Positions 463 to 9,454 of a stretch of 64,000 nt of DNA are shown in pieces. The stretch is from Escherichia coli. Lineage in GTDB: Bacteria > Pseudomonadota > Gammaproteobacteria > Enterobacterales > Enterobacteriaceae. Under the pieces are notes generated by a model. It was not told the origin of the DNA, made no database searches, and was given only the letters and a program-made list of their open reading frames with translations. Both the position numbers and the translations under genes were made by a program. Positions within the stretch are counted from its first letter, which is position 1; each line of letters begins with the position of its first letter. The DNA lies in NCBI RefSeq assembly GCF_003018255.1, contig NZ_CP027440.1; one strand, written 5' to 3'.

Positions 463-1753
463 CAGGGAAAGATCACGTAACGCTGCTTTTTTGCACTAAA
501 TAATTCGCATTTTATGTTTAAAAATTGAGATATTCCTCATTACCTGAAGCTGTTTTTTATTGCGTATACATGTTCAAATACTCCTTACATAATTAAGGAG
601 AACAAAATGGAACTTAAAAAATTGATGGAACATATTTCTGTTATCCCCGATTACAGACAAGCCTGGAAAGTGGAACATAAATTGTCGGATATTCTACTGT
701 TGACTATTTGTGCCGTTATTTCTGGTGCAGAAGGCTGGGAAGATATAGAGGATTTTGGGGAAACACATCTCGATTTTTTGAAGCAATATGGTGATTTTGA
801 AAATGGTATTCCTGTTCACGATACCATTGCCAGAGTTGTATCCTGTATCAGTCCTGCAAAATTTCACGAGTGCTTTATTAACTGGATGCGTGACTGCCAT
901 TCTTCAGATGATAAAGACGTTATTGCAATTGATGGAAAAACGCTCCGGCATTCTTATGACAAGAGTCGCCGCAGGGGAGCGATTCATGTCATTAGTGCGT
1001 TCTCAACAATGCACAGTCTGGTCATCGGACAGATCAGGACGGATGAGAAATCCAATGAGATCACAGCTATCCCAGAACTTCTTAACATGATGGATATTAA
1101 AGGAAAAATCATCACAACTGATGCGATGGGTTGCCAGAAAGATATCGCAGATAAGATACAAAAACAGGGCGGTGATTATTTATTCGCTGTAAAAGGAAAT
1201 CAGGGGCGGCTTAATAAAGCCTTTGAGGAAAATTTCCCACTGAAAGAATTAAATAATCCAGAGCATGACAGTTACGCAATTAGTGAAAAAAGTCACGGCA
1301 GAGAAGAAATCCGTCTTCATATTGTTTGCGATGTCCCTGATGAACTTATTGATTTCATGTTTGAATGGAAAGGTCTGAAGAAATTATGCGTGGCAGTCTC
1401 CTTTCGGTCAATAATAGCAGAACAAAAGAAAGAGCCAGAAATGACGGTCAGATATTATATCAGTTCTGCTGATTTAACCGCAGAGAAGTTCGCCACAGCA
1501 ATCCGAAACCACTGGCACGTGGAGAATAAGCTGCACTGGCGTCTGGACGTGGTAATGAATGAAGACGACTGCAAAATAAGAAGAGGAAATGCAGCAGAAT
1601 TATTTTCAGGGATACGGCACATCGCTATTAATATTTTAACGAATGATAATGTATTCAAGGCAGGGTTAAGACGTAAGATGCGAAAAGCAGCCATGGACAG
1701 AAACTACCTGGCGTCAGTCCTTGCGGGGAGCGGGCTTTCGTAATCTTTCCCTG
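463..1753 (+). mobile_element. ISAs1-family (H-repeat type) insertion sequence, copy 1, 1291 bp
   Basis: Imperfect terminal inverted repeats CAGGGAAAGATCACG (left, from 463) and CGTAATCTTTCCCTG (right, ending 1753); single 378-aa transposase ORF; near-identical second copy at 7125..8415. Confidence 0.8.
607..1743 (+). CDS. ISAs1-family DDE transposase (H-repeat-associated protein, YdcC/YhhI-like), 378 aa
   Basis: Protein begins [11 protein letters not shown] and carries the [13 protein letters not shown] region typical of H-rpt proteins; SD AAGGAG 7 nt upstream of ATG. Confidence 0.85.
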
Positions 1754-2359
1754 AACACCGAGGTGCTGAATAACCGCACCACGGATGTGATAAACAACCA
1801 TGCTGAGACCATCGGCAACAATCAGGTGATTGCGGTTACCAACAATCAGATACAGACGGTGGGCGTTAACCAGATAGAGACGGTGGGCAGTAACCAGATC
1901 ATTAAAGTGGGCTCTGTTCAGGTGGAAACGATTGGACTTGTTCGTGCGCTGACCGTGGGCGTGGCGTATCAGACGACGGTAGGTGGCATTATGAACACCT
2001 CGGTGGCCCTGATGCAGTCCTCGCAGATCGGTTTGCATAAATCGTTGATGGTCGGGCTGGGTTATGACGTCAAAGTCGGAAATAACGTTACCTTCACCGT
2101 TGGTAAAACGAAAAAGGATGATACCGGACAGACCGCGATTTACTCCGCCGGTGAGCATCTGGAACTCTGCTGTGGTAAGGCAAGGCTGGTGCTGACTAAG
2201 GACGGACAAATTTTTCTCAACGGCACAAAAATTCATTTGCAGGGTAAGGAGCAGGTTAATGGTGACTCACTGTTGATTAACTGGAACTGTGCAGCCTCGA
2301 AATCCCCACCGAAGACCCCTGATGAAAAGCAGGATACGCCGGATATGAGAGAGTACTGA
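1754..2359 (+). pseudogene. vgrG: vgrG 3' remnant (T6SS spike C-terminal repeat region), 5' part removed at the IS right end
   Basis: Translation shows VgrG-type repeats (VGVNQIETVGSNQIIKVGSVQVETIG); the track ORF start at 1721 lies inside the IS, so there is no native start. Confidence 0.65.
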
Positions 2360-2425: not shown

Positions 2426-5400
2426 ATGAGCGGAAAACCAGCGGCGCGTCAGGGAGATATGACTCAGTATGGCGGTCCCATTGTCCAGGGTTCGGCAGGT
2501 GTAAGAATTGGCGCGCCCACCGGCGTGGCGTGCTCGGTGTGTCCGGGCGGGATGACTTCGGGCAACCCGGTAAATCCGCTGCTGGGGGCGAAGGTGCTGC
2601 CCGGCGAGACGGACCTTGCGCTGCCCGGCCCGCTGCCGTTCATTCTCTCCCGCACCTACAGCAGCTACCGGACGAAGACGCCTGCGCCGGTGGGGATTTT
2701 TGGCCCCGGCTGGAAAGCGCCTTCTGATATCCGCTTACAGATACGCGATGATGCACTGGTACTCAACGACAACGGCGGACGGAGCATTCACTTTGAGCCG
2801 CTGCTGCCGGGTGAGGCGGTGTACAGCCGCAGCGAGTCAATGTGGCTGGTGCGCGGTGGTAAGGCAGCGCAGCCGGACGGCCACACGCTGGGGCGGCTGT
2901 GGGGGGCGCTGCCGCCGGATATCCGGTTAAGCCCGCATCTTTACCTGGCGACCAGCAGCGCACAGGGACCGTGGTGGATACTGGGGTGGTCAGAGCGGGT
3001 GCCGGGTGCTGAGGACGTACTGCCAGCGCCGCTGCCGCCGTACCGGGTGCTGACGGGGCTGGCGGACCGCTTCGGGCGGACGCTGACGTACCGGCGTGAG
3101 GCCGCCGGCGACCTGGCCGGGGAAATCACCGGCGTGACGGACGGTGCCGGGCGTGAGTTCCGTCTGGTGCTGACCACGCAGGCGCAGCGTGCGGAAGAGG
3201 CCCGCACCTCTTCGCTATCTTCTTCTGACCGTCCCCGCCCTCTCTCAGTCTCAGCGTTCCCCGACACACTGCCCGGTACCGAATACGGCCCCGACAGGGG
3301 TATCCGCCTTTCGGCGGTGTGGCTGATGCACGACCCGGCATACCCGGAGAGCCTGCCCGGTGCGCCACTGGTGCGGTACACGTATACGGAAGCCGGTGAA
3401 CTGCTGGCGGTATATGACCGCAGCAATACGCAGGTGCGCGCTTTCACGTATGACGCGCAGCACCCGGGCCGGATGGTGGCGCACCGTTACGCGGGAAGGC
3501 CGGAGATGCGCTACCGCTACGACGATGCGGGGCGGGTGGTGGAGCAGCTGAACCCGGCAGGCCTGAGTTACCGCTACCAGTATGAGCAGGACCGCATCAC
3601 CGTCACCGACAGCCTGAACCGGCGTGAGGTGCTGCATACAGAAGGCGGGGCCGGGCTGAAGCGGGTGGTGAAAAAAGAACTGGCGGACGGCAGCGTCACG
3701 CACAGCGGGTATGACGCGGCAGGAAGGCTCACGGCACAGACGGACGCGGCGGGACGGCGGACAGAGTACGGCCTGAATGTGGTGTCCGGCGATATCACGG
3801 ATATCACCACGCCGGACGGGCGGGAGACGAAATTTTACTATAACGACGGGAACCAGTTAACGGCGGTGGTGTACCCGGACGGGCTGGAGAGCAGCCGGGC
3901 ATATGATGAGCTGGACAGACTGGTATCGGAGACATCGCGCAGCGGGGAGACAGTACGCTACCGCTACGATGACGTGCACAGTGAGTTACCGGCGACGACA
4001 ACGGATGCGACGGGCAGCACCCGGCAGATGACCTGGAGCCGCTACGGGCAGTTGCTGGCCTTCACCGACTGCTCGGGCTACCAGACCCGCTATGAATACG
4101 ACCGCTTCGGCCAGATGACGGCGGTTCACCGCGAGGAAGGTATCAGCCTTTACCGCCACTATGACAACCGTGGCCGGTTAACCTCGGTGAAAGACGCACA
4201 GGGCCGTGAAACGCAGTATGAGTACAACGCCGCAGGCGACCTGACTGCCGTTATCACCCCGGACGGCAACCGGAGCGAGACACAGTACGATGCGTGGGGA
4301 AAGGCGGTCAGCACCACGCAGGGCGGGCTGACGCGCAGTATGGAGTACGATGCTGCCGGACGTGTCATCAGCCTGACCAACGAGAACGGCAGTCACAGCG
4401 ACTTCAGCTACGATGCGCTGGACCGCCTGGTACAGCAGGGCGGCTTTGACGGGCGGACGCAACGTTATCATTATGACCTGACCGGAAAACTCACGCAGAG
4501 TGAAGATGAGGGGCTTGTCATCCTCTGGTACTACGATGAATCGGACCGTATCACTCACCGCACGGTGAACGGCGAACCGGCAGAGCAGTGGCAGTATGAT
4601 GGCCACGGCTGGCTGAGAGAAATCAGCCACCTGAGCGAAGGCCACCGTGTTGCCGTCCACTATGGCTACGACGATAAGGGCCGTCTGACCGGGGAGCGCC
4701 AGACGGTGGAGAACCCGGAGACGGGGGAACTGCTGTGGCAGCATGAGACGAAACAGGCATACAACGAACAGGGGCTGGCAAACCGCGTCACGCCGGACAG
4801 CCTGCCGCCGGTGGAGTGGCTGGCCTATGGCAGCGGTTATCTGGCGGGCATGAAGCTGGGCGGGACGCCGCTGCTGGAGTACATGCGGGACAGACTGCAC
4901 CGGGAGACGGTGCGCAGCTTCGGCAGCATGGCAGGCAATACAGCCGCATATGAACTGACCAGCACTTACACCCCCGCAGGCCAGTTACAGAGCCGGCACC
5001 TGAACAGCCTGGTGTTTGATTGTGACTATAACTGGAATGACAACGGCGACCTGATGCGCATCAGCGGCCCGCGACAGACGCGGGAATACGGCTACAGCGC
5101 CACGGGCAGGCTGGAGAGCGTGCGCACCCTCGCACCGGACCTGGACATCCGCATCCCGTATGCCACCGACCCGGCGGGCAACCGGCTGCCGGACCCGGAG
5201 CTGCACCCGGACAGTACACTCACAGTGTGGCCGGATAACCGAATCACCGAAGACGCGCACTACCTGTACCGTTACGATGAATACGGCAGGCTGGCGGAGA
5301 AGACGGACCGCATCCCGGCGGGTGTGATACGGACGGACGACGAGCGGACCCACCACTACCACTACGACAGCCAGCACCGCCTGGTGTTCTATACGCGGAT

Positions 5401-6586
5401 ACAGCATGGCGAGCCACTGGTCGAGAGCCGCTACCTTTACGACCCGCTGGGCCGCCGGACGGGTAAACGGGTATGGCGGCGGGAGCGTGACCTGACGGGG
5501 TGGATGTCGCTGTCGCGTAAACCGGAGGTGACGTGGTACGGCTGGGACGGCGACCACCTGACGACGGTGCAGACCGACACCACGCGTATCCAGACGGTAT
5601 ATCAGCCGGGGAGCTTCGCGCCGCTCATCCGCATCGAAACAGACAACGGTGAGCGGGAGAAAGCGCAGCGCCGCAGCCTGGCGGAGAAGCTGCAGCAGGA
5701 AGGGAGCGAGGACGGGCACGGCGTGGTATTTCCGGCTGAACTGGTGCGGCTGCTGGACAGACTGGAGGAAGAAATCCGGGCAGACCGCGTGAGCAGTGAA
5801 AGCCGGGCGTGGCTTGCGCAGTGCGGGCTGACGGTGGAGCAACTGGAAAAACAGGTGGAGCCGGAATACACACCGGCGCGAAAAGTTCATCTTTACCACT
5901 GCGACCACCGGGGACTGCCGCTGGCGCTTATCAGCGAAGACGGCAATACGGTGTGGAGCGCGGAGTATGATGAATGGGGAAACCTGCTTAATGAGGAGAA
6001 CCCGCATCATGTGTATCAGTCATACCGTCTGCCGGGGCAGCAGCATGATGAGGAGTCGGGGCTGTACTACAACCGGAACCGGTACTACGATCCGTTGCAG
6101 GGGCGGTATATCATCCAGGACCCGATAGGGCTGGCGGGGGGAATAAACCCGTACAGTTATGTTATGAACAATCCTGTGCAATGGATTGATCCATTGGGAT
6201 TAGCTCATACTTCAGGAAAATGGAAGGACTGTGGTAAAGGTTGTCGAATCCGAATAGATGGCGATGCTGTTGGTGACGGAAGACATTTGCATTGGGAGTG
6301 TAAAAATGGGAGTGGTGTAATGGGGGAATTTGGAGGTATGTCCCATGGTGAGGATTACTCATCAGCACCAAATAGCATTAAGAAATGTGCAAAAAAATAT
6401 GGTTTCGAGCCAGAACCAAGTAAAGATCTGTCATGCAAAACCTCCGGGCTATCAACTACTGATGCGGCTCTTGCAACTGGTGCTACAATTGGCGCAGGGT
6501 ATGTTATATATAGAGTGATTCGATTTATACCTTCACTTGCACCACCTCTTTGGTGGTCAATACCTGCAAACGTTGTTACTCCATGA
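2426..6586 (+). CDS. rhsE: Rhs family polymorphic toxin, full length (1386 aa): N-terminal domain, YD-repeat shell, PxxxxDPxGL motifs, divergent C-terminal tip
   Basis: N-terminus [31 protein letters not shown] and many YD repeats; DPIGLAGG at ~6120-6140 and WIDPLGL at ~6184-6204; GC-rich core then AT-rich ~125-aa tip; SD GAAGAAGGA upstream. Symbol is by position only. Confidence 0.85.
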
Positions 6587-6957
6587 TTAAAACGGATAAT
6601 GGAGATTATATAATGAGCGATTTTGACATTGTGAGTTCAATTGACTGGCATGATGGGGTTTTGTTAGAAGTAAAAACGACATTCAAAGAATCTCATTTTA
6701 ACATGACGTTATTTATTGACATTTATAAAAATGAGAACATTAGGGAAAAAATGATAGTTGAATTTTCTGATGTAGATGATTTAGTGTTCGCTATGGATTC
6801 TGCTGAGTTAATCGATAATCACAAGTCAGGTAATATAAGTAATGGGTATGTAAAGAAATTAAAAAACAAAAGGATATATAAATTTTTTCTTTATTTTTCT
6901 GATGGCTTATTAAGCATGACATTTAAAAATTTACAATTAATAAAACCATTAGAGTAA
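6583..6957 (+). CDS. putative cognate Rhs immunity protein (RhsI-like, ~124 aa)
   Basis: ATG overlaps the rhs TGA stop (ATGA) around 6583-6586; AT-rich like the toxin tip; no hydrophobic segment. Start could instead be 6550 or 6613. Confidence 0.6.
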
Positions 6958-7124: not shown

Positions 7125-8415
7125 CAGGGAAAGATCATCAGAAGTACACTTTTTGTACTAAATAATTCGCATTTTATGTTTAAAAATTGAGATATTCCTC
7201 ATTACCTAAAGCTGTTTTTTATTGCTTATACATGATCAAATACTCCTTACATAATTAAGGAGAACAAAATGGAACTTAAAAAATTGATGGGACATATTTC
7301 TATTATCCCCGATTACAGACAAACCTGGAAAGTGGAACATAAATTGTCAGATATTCTACTGTTGATTATTAGTGCCGTTATTTCTGGTGCAGAAGGCTGG
7401 GAAGATATAGAGGATTTTGGGGAAACACATCTCGATTTTTTAAAGCAATATGGTGATTTTAAAAATGGTATTCCTGTTCACGATACCATTGCCAGAGTTG
7501 TATCCTGTATCAGTCCTGCAAAATTTCACGAGTGCTTTATTAACTGGATGCGTGACTGCCATTCTTCAGATGATAAAGACGTCATTGCAATTGATGGAAA
7601 AACGCTCCGGCATTCTTATGACAAGAGTCGTCGCAGGGGAGCGATTCATGTCATTAGTGCATTCTCAACAATGCACAGTCTGGTCATCGGACAGATCAGG
7701 ACGGATGAGAAATCTAATGAGATTACAGCTATCCCTGAACTTCTTAACATGCTGGACATTAAAGGAAAAATTATCACAACTGATGCGATGGGTTGCCAGA
7801 AAGATATTGCAGAGAAGATACAAAAACAGGGAGGTGATTATTTATTCTCTGTAAAAGGAAACCCGGGGCGGCTGAATAAAGCTTTTGAGGAAAAATTTCC
7901 ACTGAAAGAATTAAATAATCCAGAGCATGACAGTTACGCAATTAGTGAAAAGAGTCACGGCAGAGAAGAAATCCGTCTTCACATTGTTTGCGATGTCCCT
8001 GATGAACTTATTGATTTCACGTTTGAATGGAAAGGTCTGAAGAAATTATGCGTGGCAGTCTCCTTTCGGTCAATAATAGCAGAACAAAAGAAAGAGCCAG
8101 AAATGACGGTCAGATATTATATCAGTTCTGCTGATTTAACCGCAGAGATGTTCGCCACAGCAATCCGAAACCACTGGCACGTGGAGAATAAGCTGCACTG
8201 GCGTCTGGACGTGGTAATGAATGAAGACGACTGCAAAATAAGAAGAGGAAACGCCGCAGAATTATTTTCAGGGATACGGCACATCGCTATTAATATTTTA
8301 ACGAATGATAAGGTATTCAAGGCAGGGTTAAGACGTAAGATGCGAAAAGCAGCCATGGACAAAAACTATCTGGCGTCAGTCCTTGCGGGGAGCGGGCTTT
8401 CGTAATCTTTCCCTG
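7125..8415 (+). mobile_element. ISAs1-family (H-repeat type) insertion sequence, copy 2, 1291 bp, same orientation as copy 1
   Basis: Same terminal repeats (CAGGGAAAGATCA ... CGTAATCTTTCCCTG) and same length as copy 1; internal sequence near-identical with scattered substitutions. Confidence 0.8.
7269..8405 (+). CDS. ISAs1-family DDE transposase (H-repeat-associated protein), 378 aa, copy 2
   Basis: Same length and register as 607..1743 with several substitutions (e.g. [15 protein letters not shown] vs [15 protein letters not shown]). Confidence 0.85.
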
Positions 8416-8419
8416 TATT

Positions 8420-8707
8420 GTGAAATCATCAAGAGTACATATAGATCATGATAAAGATATTTTTGATGGCCTTGACAAAATCTTGGCTTTTTCCGATAAA
8501 AATAAGCATGAGTATTTTTTATATATAAAGGCATATTGGCTCAGTTTATACTTTTGTGAAATTTCTCAGAAAGTGAGAGAAAGAGATAAGTTGTCATTTT
8601 ATTATGATGAATTTTCTGTCCGATTTCCTAATGTTGTCCTATATCCGACATACTTCCAATTGCATGGTTTAGCATCTGAAAAGTCATTGTTAATTCGAGA
8701 CGCTTGA
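8420..8707 (+). pseudogene. AT-rich ORF abutting the IS right end; possible orphan Rhs immunity remnant
   Basis: 95-aa ORF begins 5 bp after the IS end; composition resembles the immunity gene; no convincing native start context. Confidence 0.3.
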
Positions 8708-8986: not shown

Positions 8987-9454
8987 ATGATTATACGACC
9001 AGTCAAACCTTCAGATGTTGAACCATTACTGGATATGCTGCTTGCCAGTGGACAATTTAATCAAGATGGCCTTCATCATGTACAAAAAACACTAACACAT
9101 TATTTCTCAGGTCAATCTGCCGATTTATGGTTTAGTGCAGAACACTTAGGACTGGCAGGGATTGCCTATTGCGCTCCTGAAGTGATGACAAATGATGTCT
9201 GGAATTTATTAATGCACTGGATCAGTCCTTCCCATCAGCGCCAGGGAGTGGGACATCTGCTGATTAACGAAATAGAAAAGGAGCTCACAATTAAACAGGC
9301 AAGACTACTTTTAGTAGAGACCTCCAGCTATGTCGATTTTAGTGCCGCCCGCGCATTTTATACATAACAGGGCTTTATCAATGAAGCTATAATACGCAAT
9401 TACTATGATGTTGGTGAGGATAAATTAATCTTCACTAAAAATATGCAATCGTGA
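8987..9454 (+). pseudogene. GNAT-family N-acetyltransferase with an in-frame TAA (9365-9367); reading frame continues 28 codons to TGA at 9452-9454
   Basis: SD AAGG 7 nt upstream; acetyl-CoA motif QRQGVGH; the stop sits where GNAT motif B expects a lysine (AFYT-stop-QGF). Confidence 0.65.

What the first reader, a model, noticed from the sequence alone, without database searches (positions are those of the whole stretch)
2426..6957. Full-length Rhs toxin with a C-terminal tip of unknown function and an overlapping immunity gene
The 1386-aa Rhs ORF is intact from its conserved N-terminus through the YD-repeat shell to the DPxGL motifs (~6120-6204). Immediately after, GC content drops sharply and about 125 residues of unrelated sequence follow. 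The tip is Cys/His-rich ([21 protein letters not shown]) and ends in a glycine-zipper-like hydrophobic tail ([26 protein letters not shown]). I cannot assign it to a named toxin fold, so it is a candidate uncharacterised effector. The next ORF starts on the Rhs stop (ATGA overlap), has matching AT-rich composition and no transmembrane segment, as expected for a cognate immunity protein. In K-12 as I recall it, the Rhs gene at this locus is a truncated pseudogene, so an intact copy is a real strain difference.
Basis: partly seen in the sequence, partly recalled or inferred. Interest (0 to 1): 0.7.

Follow-up and report, generated by a model that had tools for sequence, protein, structure and literature searches.

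The report
Rhs toxin tip with membrane tail
This is an intact E. coli Rhs contact-dependent toxin gene whose 127-residue tip combines an unnamed, conserved His/Cys-rich domain (matched by a soluble immunity protein) with an interchangeable C-terminal membrane tail already catalogued as Tox-WTIP; it is an ordinary kind of system with an uncharacterised payload.

Summary
There is a 1386-aa intact Rhs ORF (2426-6586), a GC drop after DPLGL, a 127-aa tip and a small downstream gene.

That family was predicted in 2012 to form pores, and I found no experimental work on it.

The other ~73 residues (aa 1260-1332) hit nothing in Pfam, NCBIfam or PDB, and no solved fold. They still define a real family: 64 cluster representatives, placed right after the Rhs cleavage motif wherever upstream sequence allows the check (43 of 44). 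H1287 and H1307 are invariant, and four Cys are near-invariant. AlphaFold2 gives a confident four-strand-plus-helix model.

In this family the domain is followed by hydrophobic tails of unrelated types. Conversely, WTIP tails follow many unrelated domains in 38 genomes.

The soluble, TM-free immunity protein tracks the His/Cys domain, not the tail. Its conserved start is probably 6613, not the ATGA overlap.

My best reading is that the His/Cys domain is the toxic module and the tail inserts, anchors or translocates it at the membrane. The activity is unknown.

In this strain the upstream vgrG is cut by ISAs1.

Verdict: an ordinary system with a new tip architecture. Interest is moderate.

The parts
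463..1753 (+). ISAs1-family insertion sequence (H-repeat), copy 1; the transposase ORF is 607-1743. It has replaced the 5' part of vgrG.
   Evidence: NCBIfam transpos_ISAs1, E 5e-124. It is 96.3% identical over 1293 nt to copy 2, in direct orientation. Annotation of the near-identical genome DETEC-S792 agrees.
1748..2359 (+). vgrG remnant: only the C-terminal gp5-trimerisation part remains and the N-terminus is missing.
   Evidence: PGAP marks the equivalent stretch as 'incomplete; missing N-terminus' in DETEC-S792 and JNE112863. PCN033 has a full-length but frameshifted vgrG at this position.
2426..6202 (+). Rhs N-terminal region, YD-repeat shell and RHS-associated core (aa 1-1259). DUF6531 covers aa 46-123. 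The putative aspartyl autoprotease pair is D1232 (DPIGL, 6119-6133) and D1255 (DPLGL, 6188-6202).
   Evidence: NF041261 full-length match at 2704.7 bits; TIGR03696 on aa 1181-1259. Pfam RHS and RHS_repeat hits. DUF6531, E 1e-18. The 23-residue Asp spacing and the cut site 4 residues after the second Asp match Tse5, D1141/D1164 with CT from 1169 (PMC10684867).
6203..6421 (+). Tip module 1: an unnamed ~73-aa His/Cys-rich soluble domain (aa 1260-1332). H1287 and H1307 are invariant. R1276, R1286, H1289, E1301, S1306 and C1269, C1273, C1292, C1321 are at least 90% conserved.
   Evidence: Profile search of 1.84 billion representatives found 64 hits at E<1e-3 and 50 at E<1e-10. Conservation is from the 54-sequence alignment A4. 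The AF2 model has pLDDT 85-98 with four strands plus one helix. There is no Pfam, NCBIfam, PDB-sequence or fold match.
6422..6460 (+). Ser/Thr/Pro-rich linker (aa 1333-1345).
   Evidence: Low pLDDT in the AF2 model. This stretch is variable and Pro-rich in homologues.
6461..6586 (+). Tip module 2: the Tox-WTIP C-terminal hydrophobic tail (aa 1346-1386) plus the stop codon. RxxR is R1363-R1366 and Wx[ST]IP is W1376-P1380.
   Evidence: Pfam PF15654 at E 6.1e-12 and 1.8e-13, model positions 36/40-79. The maximum 19-mer hydropathy is 1.32, at tip residues 88-106 = aa 1347-1365. The same tail follows many unrelated domains in 38 genomes.
6613..6957 (+). Cognate immunity gene: 114 aa, soluble and acidic (pI 5.3), from an unnamed family. 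An alternative, probably spurious, start is the ATG at 6583, which overlaps the rhs stop.
   Evidence: PGAP start and product WP_001279013.1. GGAG 8 nt upstream. Homologues sit downstream of toxins carrying the same His/Cys domain with four different tail types. No TM segment. No Pfam or PDB hit.
7125..8415 (+). ISAs1 copy 2 (ydcC, H-repeat); the transposase ORF is 7269-8405.

Best explanation
**What it is.** An intact Rhs polymorphic toxin with its immunity gene sits at the E. coli rhsE locus.

**Release of the tip (inferred).** By analogy with Tse5, RhsA and Rhs1, the shell encapsulates the tip, and the D1232/D1255 aspartyl site cuts after L1259. This would release a 13.5-kDa tip.

**Two modules (shown).**
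- Module 1 (aa 1260-1332) is a small, well-folded domain of four beta-strands and one helix. It has invariant His1287 and His1307, conserved His1289, Arg1276, Arg1286, Glu1301 and Ser1306, and a cluster of four conserved Cys.
- Module 2 (aa 1346-1386) is a Tox-WTIP hydrophobic tail.

**Comparative pattern (shown).** Within the module-1 family the tail is swapped for unrelated hydrophobic tails. WTIP tails are attached to many unrelated soluble domains. The soluble, cytoplasmic-type immunity protein co-varies with module 1 only.

**Proposed mechanism (inferred).** Module 1 is the toxic, immunity-neutralised unit. It is most likely a metal-binding or His-dependent enzyme working in the cytoplasm or at the cytoplasmic face of the inner membrane. 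The tail is an accessory device that inserts into the target's cytoplasmic membrane, either to anchor the small domain or to help carry it across. The immunity protein blocks module 1 by direct binding in the cytoplasm.

**Not established.** The chemistry of module 1 is unknown.
For: **Real Rhs and tip boundary.**. The cleavage geometry is the same as in Tse5.

**Module 1 is a genuine, selected domain.**
- The profile search found 64 cluster representatives.
- In 43 of 44 members with enough upstream sequence, the D..G cleavage motif lies within 12 residues before the domain.
- Polar residues are invariant or near-invariant.
- The AF2 model has pLDDT 85-98.

**Tails are interchangeable.** Among 54 family members there are 7 WTIP tails, 6 'AEPCG' glycine-zipper tails, 3 'WWAPLL' tails and 24 other hydrophobic tails. 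Ten members have no hydrophobic segment.

**The immunity protein tracks module 1 across tail types.**
- L002, AEPCG tail: 35% identity, E 3e-22.
- L006, WTIP tail on a VgrG-Rhs fusion inside a T6SS cluster.
- L008, WWAPLL tail.
- L009, a tandem-duplicated immunity gene.
- Reciprocally, a 23%-identical immunity homologue in Xanthomonas lies just after an Rhs carrying module 1.

**WTIP tails elsewhere.** 38 loci were found in Proteobacteria, Firmicutes, Verrucomicrobia and other phyla. Only 3 carry module 1. Their downstream ORFs fall into at least 18 unrelated clusters, none has a TM segment, and the window-type immunity appears only in those 3 loci.

**Immunity protein.** It has no signal peptide and no TM segment.

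**Precedent.** The Rhs shell can carry a membrane-inserting cargo (Tse5, PMC10684867).
Against: - No activity, toxicity or binding has been measured.
- I could not inspect model coordinates, so the proposed His cluster and Cys cluster are inferred from strand topology only.
- The WTIP segment is only moderately hydrophobic (KD 1.32), contains two Arg and is Pro-rich. True membrane insertion is therefore unproven.
- Four conserved Cys could be disulfides, which would fit a periplasmic site of action and clash with a cytoplasmic immunity protein.
- Downstream-ORF calling in the 38 WTIP loci was crude: the first ORF of at least 60 codons.
- A soluble immunity protein could in principle also stop a membrane toxin by holding its soluble head.
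Confidence: 0.55

Rival explanations
1. The WTIP tail is itself the killing element, as Zhang et al. predicted for Tox-WTIP. It would be a small membrane hairpin that forms pores or depolarises the inner membrane, like Tse5-CT. The His/Cys domain would be a soluble head for folding, oligomerisation or immunity docking. The immunity protein would protect by holding that head and blocking insertion.
For: - Tox-WTIP is listed under pore-forming toxins with two membrane helices (PMC3482391).
- The Pfam match is significant and both motifs are present.
- Most module-1 relatives end in a hydrophobic, often glycine-zipper-like, segment: 42 of 54 have KD of at least 1.2.
- An Rhs-borne pore former is a proven precedent.
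Against: - No common immunity family accompanies WTIP tails. There are at least 18 unrelated downstream families, all without TM segments.
- From my own knowledge, not tested here, characterised membrane-acting toxins usually have membrane or periplasmic immunity proteins.
- The tail is the variable part and the soluble domain is the part with invariant polar residues.
- 10 of 54 family members have no hydrophobic tail.
- The WTIP segment is weakly hydrophobic and Pro-rich.
Confidence: 0.25
2. In this particular strain the locus is a silent or non-deliverable relic. The ORFs are intact, but the cognate vgrG is destroyed by ISAs1, so the toxin is not loaded on a T6SS spike. Only the immunity gene would matter, as protection against kin that do fire this toxin. 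This concerns functional state and can be true together with either mechanism.
For: - vgrG is reduced to a C-terminal fragment by an ISAs1 insertion.
- vgrG is also frameshifted in PCN033, which carries the same tip.
- The PAAR motif at the Rhs N-terminus is not significant in Pfam (E 0.14).
- K-12 shows that this locus decays.
- Many truncated or frameshifted copies of this tip exist in public data.
Against: - The 4.2-kb rhs ORF and the immunity ORF are both uninterrupted.
- The tip is at least 99% identical in 374 genomes, which suggests recent maintenance.
- Other vgrG genes elsewhere in the genome could load it; the window does not show the rest of the genome.
Confidence: 0.3
3. Module 1 is a disulfide-bonded domain that acts in the periplasm, for example on the cell wall or the outer leaflet of the inner membrane, held at the membrane by the tail.
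For: Four near-invariant Cys, plus extra CxxC or CxxxC motifs next to the tail in 14 of 54 members. From my own knowledge, T6SS often delivers into the periplasm.
Against: - The immunity proteins in all examined loci lack a signal peptide and TM segments.
- Cys-less relatives exist: L033 (hhalign probability 83%) and P0102.
Confidence: 0.05

Closest known systems
E. coli Rhs elements (RhsA-E family; NCBIfam NF041261 'RHS element core protein') with a variable tip and a downstream immunity gene
   Same: It has a full-length core, YD shell and DPxGL...DPxGL end, followed by an AT-rich tip and a small immunity gene. It sits at the same chromosomal site as K-12 rhsE.
   Different: The tip and immunity sequences differ from the K-12 arrangement: in K-12 rhsE is a pseudogene followed by ydcD, a CDS of 483 nt. 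Here the tip is bipartite and ends in a membrane tail.
Tox-WTIP (Pfam PF15654; Zhang et al. 2012, predicted pore-forming toxin)
   Same: The extreme C-terminus matches at E 6e-12 to 2e-13 and carries both the RxxR and Wx[ST]IP motifs.
   Different: Only the second half of the model (positions 36-79) is matched, covering about 40 of 127 tip residues. Comparative evidence here indicates the motif is a portable tail, not the immunity-matched toxin. I found no experimental paper on it.
Tse5 (PA2684) of Pseudomonas aeruginosa: an Rhs whose C-terminal fragment is a membrane-inserting, ion-selective pore former
   Same: Tse5 is an Rhs cocoon carrying a ~15-kDa cargo with hydrophobic segments. The two-aspartate autoprotease has the same spacing and cut position.
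   Different: No sequence relation was tested. Tse5-CT is hydrophobic along much of its length. Here about 60% of the tip is a polar, well-folded domain and the immunity protein is soluble.
prePAAR/Eag-dependent Rhs and Tse6-type effectors with N-terminal transmembrane helices (from my own knowledge; not tested here)
   Same: The idea is shared: hydrophobic helices attached to a soluble toxin help it reach the target cytoplasm across the inner membrane.
   Different: In those effectors the helices are N-terminal, lie outside the cocoon and need Eag chaperones. Here the hydrophobic element is at the C-terminal end of the released tip and would travel inside the shell.

Membership tests
Rhs polymorphic toxin (RHS element core protein, NF041261) | Full-length match to the curated core model above its cut-off | tested here: met
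   2704.7 bits against a cut-off of 2000; aa 1-1259 cover model positions 1-1261 of 1261.
Rhs polymorphic toxin (RHS element core protein, NF041261) | YD/RHS repeats forming the shell | tested here: met
   TIGR01643, E 6e-49, six stretches. More than 10 significant Pfam RHS_repeat hits.
Rhs polymorphic toxin (RHS element core protein, NF041261) | C-terminal RHS-associated core with the DPxGL-x18-DPxGL aspartyl autoprotease motif demarcating the tip | tested here: met
   TIGR03696 on aa 1181-1259. DPIGL is at aa 1232 and DPLGL at aa 1255. The spacing equals that of Tse5 D1141/D1164. Cleavage itself cannot be tested here.
Rhs polymorphic toxin (RHS element core protein, NF041261) | Variable tip followed by a cognate immunity gene | tested here: met
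   The downstream gene is conserved next to the same tip domain in distant taxa, and the reciprocal search agrees. Protection itself is not testable here.
T6SS-delivered Rhs effector | N-terminal PAAR or PAAR-like domain | tested here: inconclusive
   Pfam PAAR_motif reaches only E 0.14 and 1.4 on aa 2-29. DUF6531 is significant.
T6SS-delivered Rhs effector | Intact linked vgrG | tested here: not met
   vgrG is truncated by ISAs1 in the window. A family member in Paraburkholderia is a VgrG-Rhs fusion inside a T6SS cluster, so the family as a whole is T6SS-linked.
Tox-WTIP (PF15654) | Significant match to the family HMM | tested here: met
   E 6.1e-12 and 1.8e-13. The match is partial, covering model positions 36/40-79 of 79.
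Tox-WTIP (PF15654) | RxxR and Wx[ST]IP motifs (Zhang et al. 2012) | tested here: met
   R1363-V-I-R1366 and W1376-W-S-I-P1380.
Tox-WTIP (PF15654) | Two membrane-spanning helices | tested here: inconclusive
   There is one 19-mer with mean hydropathy 1.32. The remainder is Pro-rich. AF2 gives one low-confidence helix.
Tox-WTIP (PF15654) | Pore-forming toxicity | not testable with these tools
   I found no experimental report. The comparative immunity pattern argues against the tail being the immunity-matched toxin.
Membrane pore-forming Rhs/T6SS toxins (Tse5-CT-like) | Membrane-embedded or periplasmic immunity protein (typical of characterised cases; from my own knowledge) | tested here: not met
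   The immunity protein has no TM segment and no signal peptide. The same holds in all 38 WTIP loci.
Named nuclease, deaminase or peptidase tip families (HNH/His-Me, Tox-REase, Ntox and others) | Profile or fold match of the His/Cys domain | tested here: not met
C-terminal sorting signals (PEP-CTERM, GlyGly-CTERM and similar) | Motif, then TM helix, then basic cluster, recognised by NCBIfam models | tested here: not met
   No NCBIfam hit on the tip. The order here is reversed: hydrophobic segment, then RxxR, then the WxSIP motif.

The most novel reading that the evidence does not exclude
C-terminal hydrophobic tails, of the WTIP type and several unrelated types, would be a general, portable module that lets small soluble Rhs toxin domains insert into and cross (or dock on) the target's cytoplasmic membrane by themselves. 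This would apply in both Gram-negative and Gram-positive bacteria. 'Tox-WTIP' would then be an entry or anchor device rather than a toxin. The 73-aa His/Cys domain would be a new minimal enzyme fold with its own new immunity family.
Probability: 0.25. Interest if true: 0.8.

Novelty: new variant of a known kind. Interest (0 to 1): 0.5.

Why it matters
**Open question.** How Rhs and T6SS toxins that act in the cytoplasm get across the recipient's inner membrane is still unresolved. This work gives a tractable E. coli case:
- a 73-residue soluble domain;
- a 40-residue tail that nature swaps freely;
- a soluble immunity protein.

Toxicity, topology and tail-swap experiments with these parts would be simple.

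**Database annotation.** The results also suggest that one Pfam 'toxin' family (Tox-WTIP), classed as pore-forming since 2012, may be mislabelled as to its role.

**New families.** The work defines two unnamed families. One is a toxin domain with 64 cluster representatives. The other is its immunity partner, with 37 database clusters, including fragments. Both could be added to annotation resources. About 7% of complete E. coli genomes (404 of 5426) carry this exact tip.

**If the ordinary reading holds.** It is then simply one more uncharacterised Rhs tip.

Tried and rejected
1. **Profile libraries.** NCBIfam, PADLOC and Pfam searches of the His/Cys domain and of the immunity protein gave no hits. 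This includes alignment-based scans of 54 and 9 members. The immunity protein gave only insignificant DUF6981 and SAUGI hits.

2. **PDB sequence and profile searches.** There were no hits for the tip. For the immunity protein only chance G-alpha hits appeared, at E of 0.09 or worse.

4. **Immunity protein model.** The AF2 model was too weak (pLDDT 62) to use for a fold search.

5. **Motif readings by eye.** I considered HNH/His-Me, HxE...CxxC deaminase, cupin HxH...E and M23 HxxxD/HxH. None is supported by any profile or fold result, and I make no claim from them.

6. **A single 'HxH' superfamily upstream of all WTIP tails.** hhalign supports only one Cys-less relative (L033, probability 83%). 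The PHxHDW, DHWHHNG and GTHGLRYRF groups are unrelated.

7. **The ATGA-overlapping start of the immunity gene.** It is not conserved and has no Shine-Dalgarno sequence.

8. **A C-terminal sorting signal.** There is no NCBIfam hit, and the order of elements is wrong.

9. **Literature.** No experimental paper on Tox-WTIP or on this tip was found in the searchable library.


Full report
**1. The observation**

The window holds a 1386-aa ORF at 2426-6586 on the + strand. It matches the curated NCBIfam model for the RHS element core protein end to end: aa 1-1259, 2704.7 bits, cut-off 2000. Pfam adds many RHS repeats, the RHS domain and DUF6531 at aa 46-123.

The two DPxGL motifs are at 6119-6133 and 6188-6202, so the tip begins at A1260 (nt 6203) and is 127 aa long. 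GC falls from about 0.6 in the core to 0.42-0.48 in the tip and 0.26-0.35 in the next gene.

K-12 MG1655 carries rhsE as an annotated pseudogene at the same site.

One detail is not. An ATG at 6583 does overlap the rhs stop. But the ATG at 6613 has a GGAG 8 nt upstream. It is the start PGAP uses in near-identical genomes, and it is where distant homologues begin.

**2. What the tip is**

Pfam places the last 40 residues in Tox-WTIP, PF15654 (E 6.1e-12; 1.8e-13 on the tip alone). Both motifs that Zhang et al. 2012 gave for the family are present: RxxR as R1363-R1366 and Wx[ST]IP as W1376-P1380. Those authors listed the family as a predicted pore-forming toxin with two membrane helices and no known immunity protein (PMC3482391). 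I found no other paper that mentions it.

The first 73 residues of the tip hit nothing:
- Pfam, NCBIfam and PADLOC;
- PDB sequences and profiles.

**3. The N-terminal part is a real domain family**

A profile of this part, searched against 1.84 billion representative proteins, gave 64 hits at E<1e-3 and 50 at E<1e-10.

In 43 of 44 members with enough upstream sequence, the Rhs cleavage motif lies within 12 residues before the domain. The domain is always followed by a further 31-71 residues.

A 54-sequence alignment shows H1287 and H1307 invariant. At least 90% conserved are R1276, R1286, H1289, W1290, E1301, S1306 and four Cys: C1269, C1273, C1292 and C1321.

AlphaFold2 with this alignment models residues 1-75 at pLDDT 85-98 as four antiparallel strands plus one helix. 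The tail is modelled at low confidence.

Fold searches found no solved relative:
- Foldseek against PDB found nothing below E 0.001.
- AFDB50 returned only uncharacterised Rhs proteins from E. coli, Salmonella, Xanthomonas and Ottowia.

From strand pairing I infer two clusters at opposite edges of the sheet. One holds the four Cys. The other holds H1287, H1289, R1276, E1301 and H1307. I could not read the coordinates, so this remains an inference.

**4. The tip is modular**

Within the family the tails are of unrelated kinds:

| Tail type | Members (of 54) |
|---|---|
| WTIP | 7 |
| 'AEPCG' glycine zipper | 6 |
| 'WWAPLL' | 3 |
| Other hydrophobic (hydropathy at least 1.6) | 24 |
| Weakly hydrophobic (1.2-1.6) | 4 |
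| No hydrophobic segment | 10 |

I then ran the converse test. A scan of one genome per species (100,044 species) for the WTIP tail found 38 loci in Proteobacteria, Firmicutes, Verrucomicrobia, Aminicenantes, Chloroflexi and Bacteroidales. In all 38 loci the match lies at or within a few residues of the C-terminus, except L050, which continues for about 40 more residues.

Only three of these loci (Citrobacter, Paraburkholderia and a gammaproteobacterial MAG) carry the window's domain. In 19 representatives, Pfam recognises nothing in the tip upstream of the tail other than the tail itself; one also has a PAAR-like domain and one a YD-shell match. hhalign links only one Cys-less protein (L033) to the window's domain.

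**5. The immunity gene follows the soluble domain**

Homologues of the 114-aa protein lie directly downstream of toxins that carry the His/Cys domain with four different tails:
- L002, AEPCG tail: 35% identity, E 3e-22.
- L006, WTIP tail, on a VgrG-Rhs fusion inside a T6SS cluster.
- L008, WWAPLL tail.
- L009, another tail type, with the immunity domain duplicated in tandem.

The reciprocal test agrees. Starting from a 23%-identical immunity homologue in Xanthomonas axonopodis, the upstream gene is an Rhs with the same domain.

Among the 38 WTIP loci, the downstream ORFs fall into at least 18 unrelated clusters. None has a TM segment. The window-type immunity occurs only where the His/Cys domain occurs.

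The immunity protein is acidic (pI 5.3) and lacks a signal peptide or TM segment. It has no Pfam or PDB relative. Its AlphaFold2 model is weak (pLDDT 62).

**6. Mechanism**

Shown:
- an intact Rhs;
- a bipartite tip;
- pairing of the immunity protein with module 1;
- portability of the tail.

Inferred by analogy with Tse5: two aspartates 23 residues apart cut four residues after the second Asp, and the shell carries a membrane-inserting cargo (PMC10684867). On that basis the tip is released after L1259.

My best reading (confidence 0.55) is that module 1 is the toxic unit and is neutralised in the cytoplasm. It is probably a His- or metal-dependent enzyme. The tail inserts into the target's cytoplasmic membrane to anchor the domain or help translocate it.

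Two observations fit a self-entry role for the tail. WTIP tails occur on Rhs-type toxins of Gram-positive bacteria. One family member has a Sec-type signal peptide instead of a T6SS adaptor.

The main rival (0.25) is the 2012 prediction that the tail itself kills by forming pores. It is weakened by three findings: there is no shared immunity family, no membrane-embedded immunity protein, and the conservation pattern favours the soluble domain.

Independently of mechanism, the copy in this strain may not be deliverable (0.3). vgrG just upstream is truncated by an ISAs1 element, and the PAAR motif is not significant.

**7. Comparison and novelty**

The system is a member of the Rhs polymorphic-toxin kind, and all sequence-level criteria are met. 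The tail belongs to Tox-WTIP by HMM and by motifs, and public databases already say so for an identical fragment. The His/Cys domain and the immunity protein belong to no named family.

The tip plus immunity is at least 95% identical in 403 of 5426 complete E. coli genomes (404 have a match in all), and always chromosomal. It is common and annotated only as 'hypothetical'.

I class it as a new variant of a known kind: an ordinary Rhs system whose payload architecture, a small soluble domain plus an exchangeable membrane tail, has not been described in the papers I could search.

Interest is moderate (0.5). The finding is not surprising as an Rhs element. It does offer a simple, testable handle on how small Rhs toxins deal with the inner membrane, and it prompts a re-reading of one Pfam 'toxin' family.

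Noticed in passing
window 463-1753 and 7125-8415: Two ISAs1 (H-repeat) copies, 96.3% identical over 1293 nt and in direct orientation, bracket the vgrG remnant, rhs and the immunity gene. The arrangement resembles a composite element and could be a substrate for deletion by recombination. The closest genome, JNE112863, has a third copy just upstream.
   Followed up: partly
window 8987-9367: A 126-aa GNAT N-acetyltransferase gene lies between ydcC (ISAs1) and yddH. At that position K-12 has pptA instead. An unannotated 95-aa ORF at 8420-8707 directly follows the IS.
   Followed up: no
L009:7769-8464: The immunity gene next to a family member (P0090, genome GCA_030818125.1) is a 232-aa tandem duplication of the immunity domain.
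   Followed up: partly
L009:8561-9109 and L011:3843-4241: A SymE_toxin (PF08845) gene lies close downstream of the immunity gene in two independent loci of this toxin family. In L009 it is on the opposite strand.
   Followed up: no
L012:3001-3321 (Thiosocius teredinicola): An immunity homologue sits with no toxin upstream, among a run of small unrelated ORFs. This looks like an orphan-immunity island.
   Followed up: no
L008:2989-7206: The Rhs protein P0070 carries the same His/Cys domain but starts with a Sec-type signal peptide (...AVKAWLIALATVALSLPAWAQ). It follows a gene of more than 2000 aa, which suggests non-T6SS export.
   Followed up: no
L006:3001-8898 (Paraburkholderia lycopersici): A 1965-aa VgrG-Rhs fusion carries the same tip (His/Cys domain plus WTIP tail). 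It lies inside a T6SS cluster, in the order TssF, VgrG-Rhs, immunity, PAAR, DotU, TssG.
   Followed up: partly
tails of family members (one search list): 14 of 54 family members have a CxxC or CxxxC pair directly before the hydrophobic tail segment, for example MCDNTCQ and VCGENCQ. Its meaning is unknown.
   Followed up: no
P0005, P0009, P0014, P0017, P0018: Many public copies of this E. coli tip are frameshifted or truncated inside the tip. One such cluster has 52 member sequences. These could be pseudogenes or homopolymer sequencing errors in the AT-rich tip.
   Followed up: no
L024 and L026 (Lachnospiraceae): Here a WTIP tail follows a domain with an E-x-K motif (GTFEIYEIKP) that resembles a PD-(D/E)xK nuclease by eye. 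Pfam did not confirm this.
   Followed up: no
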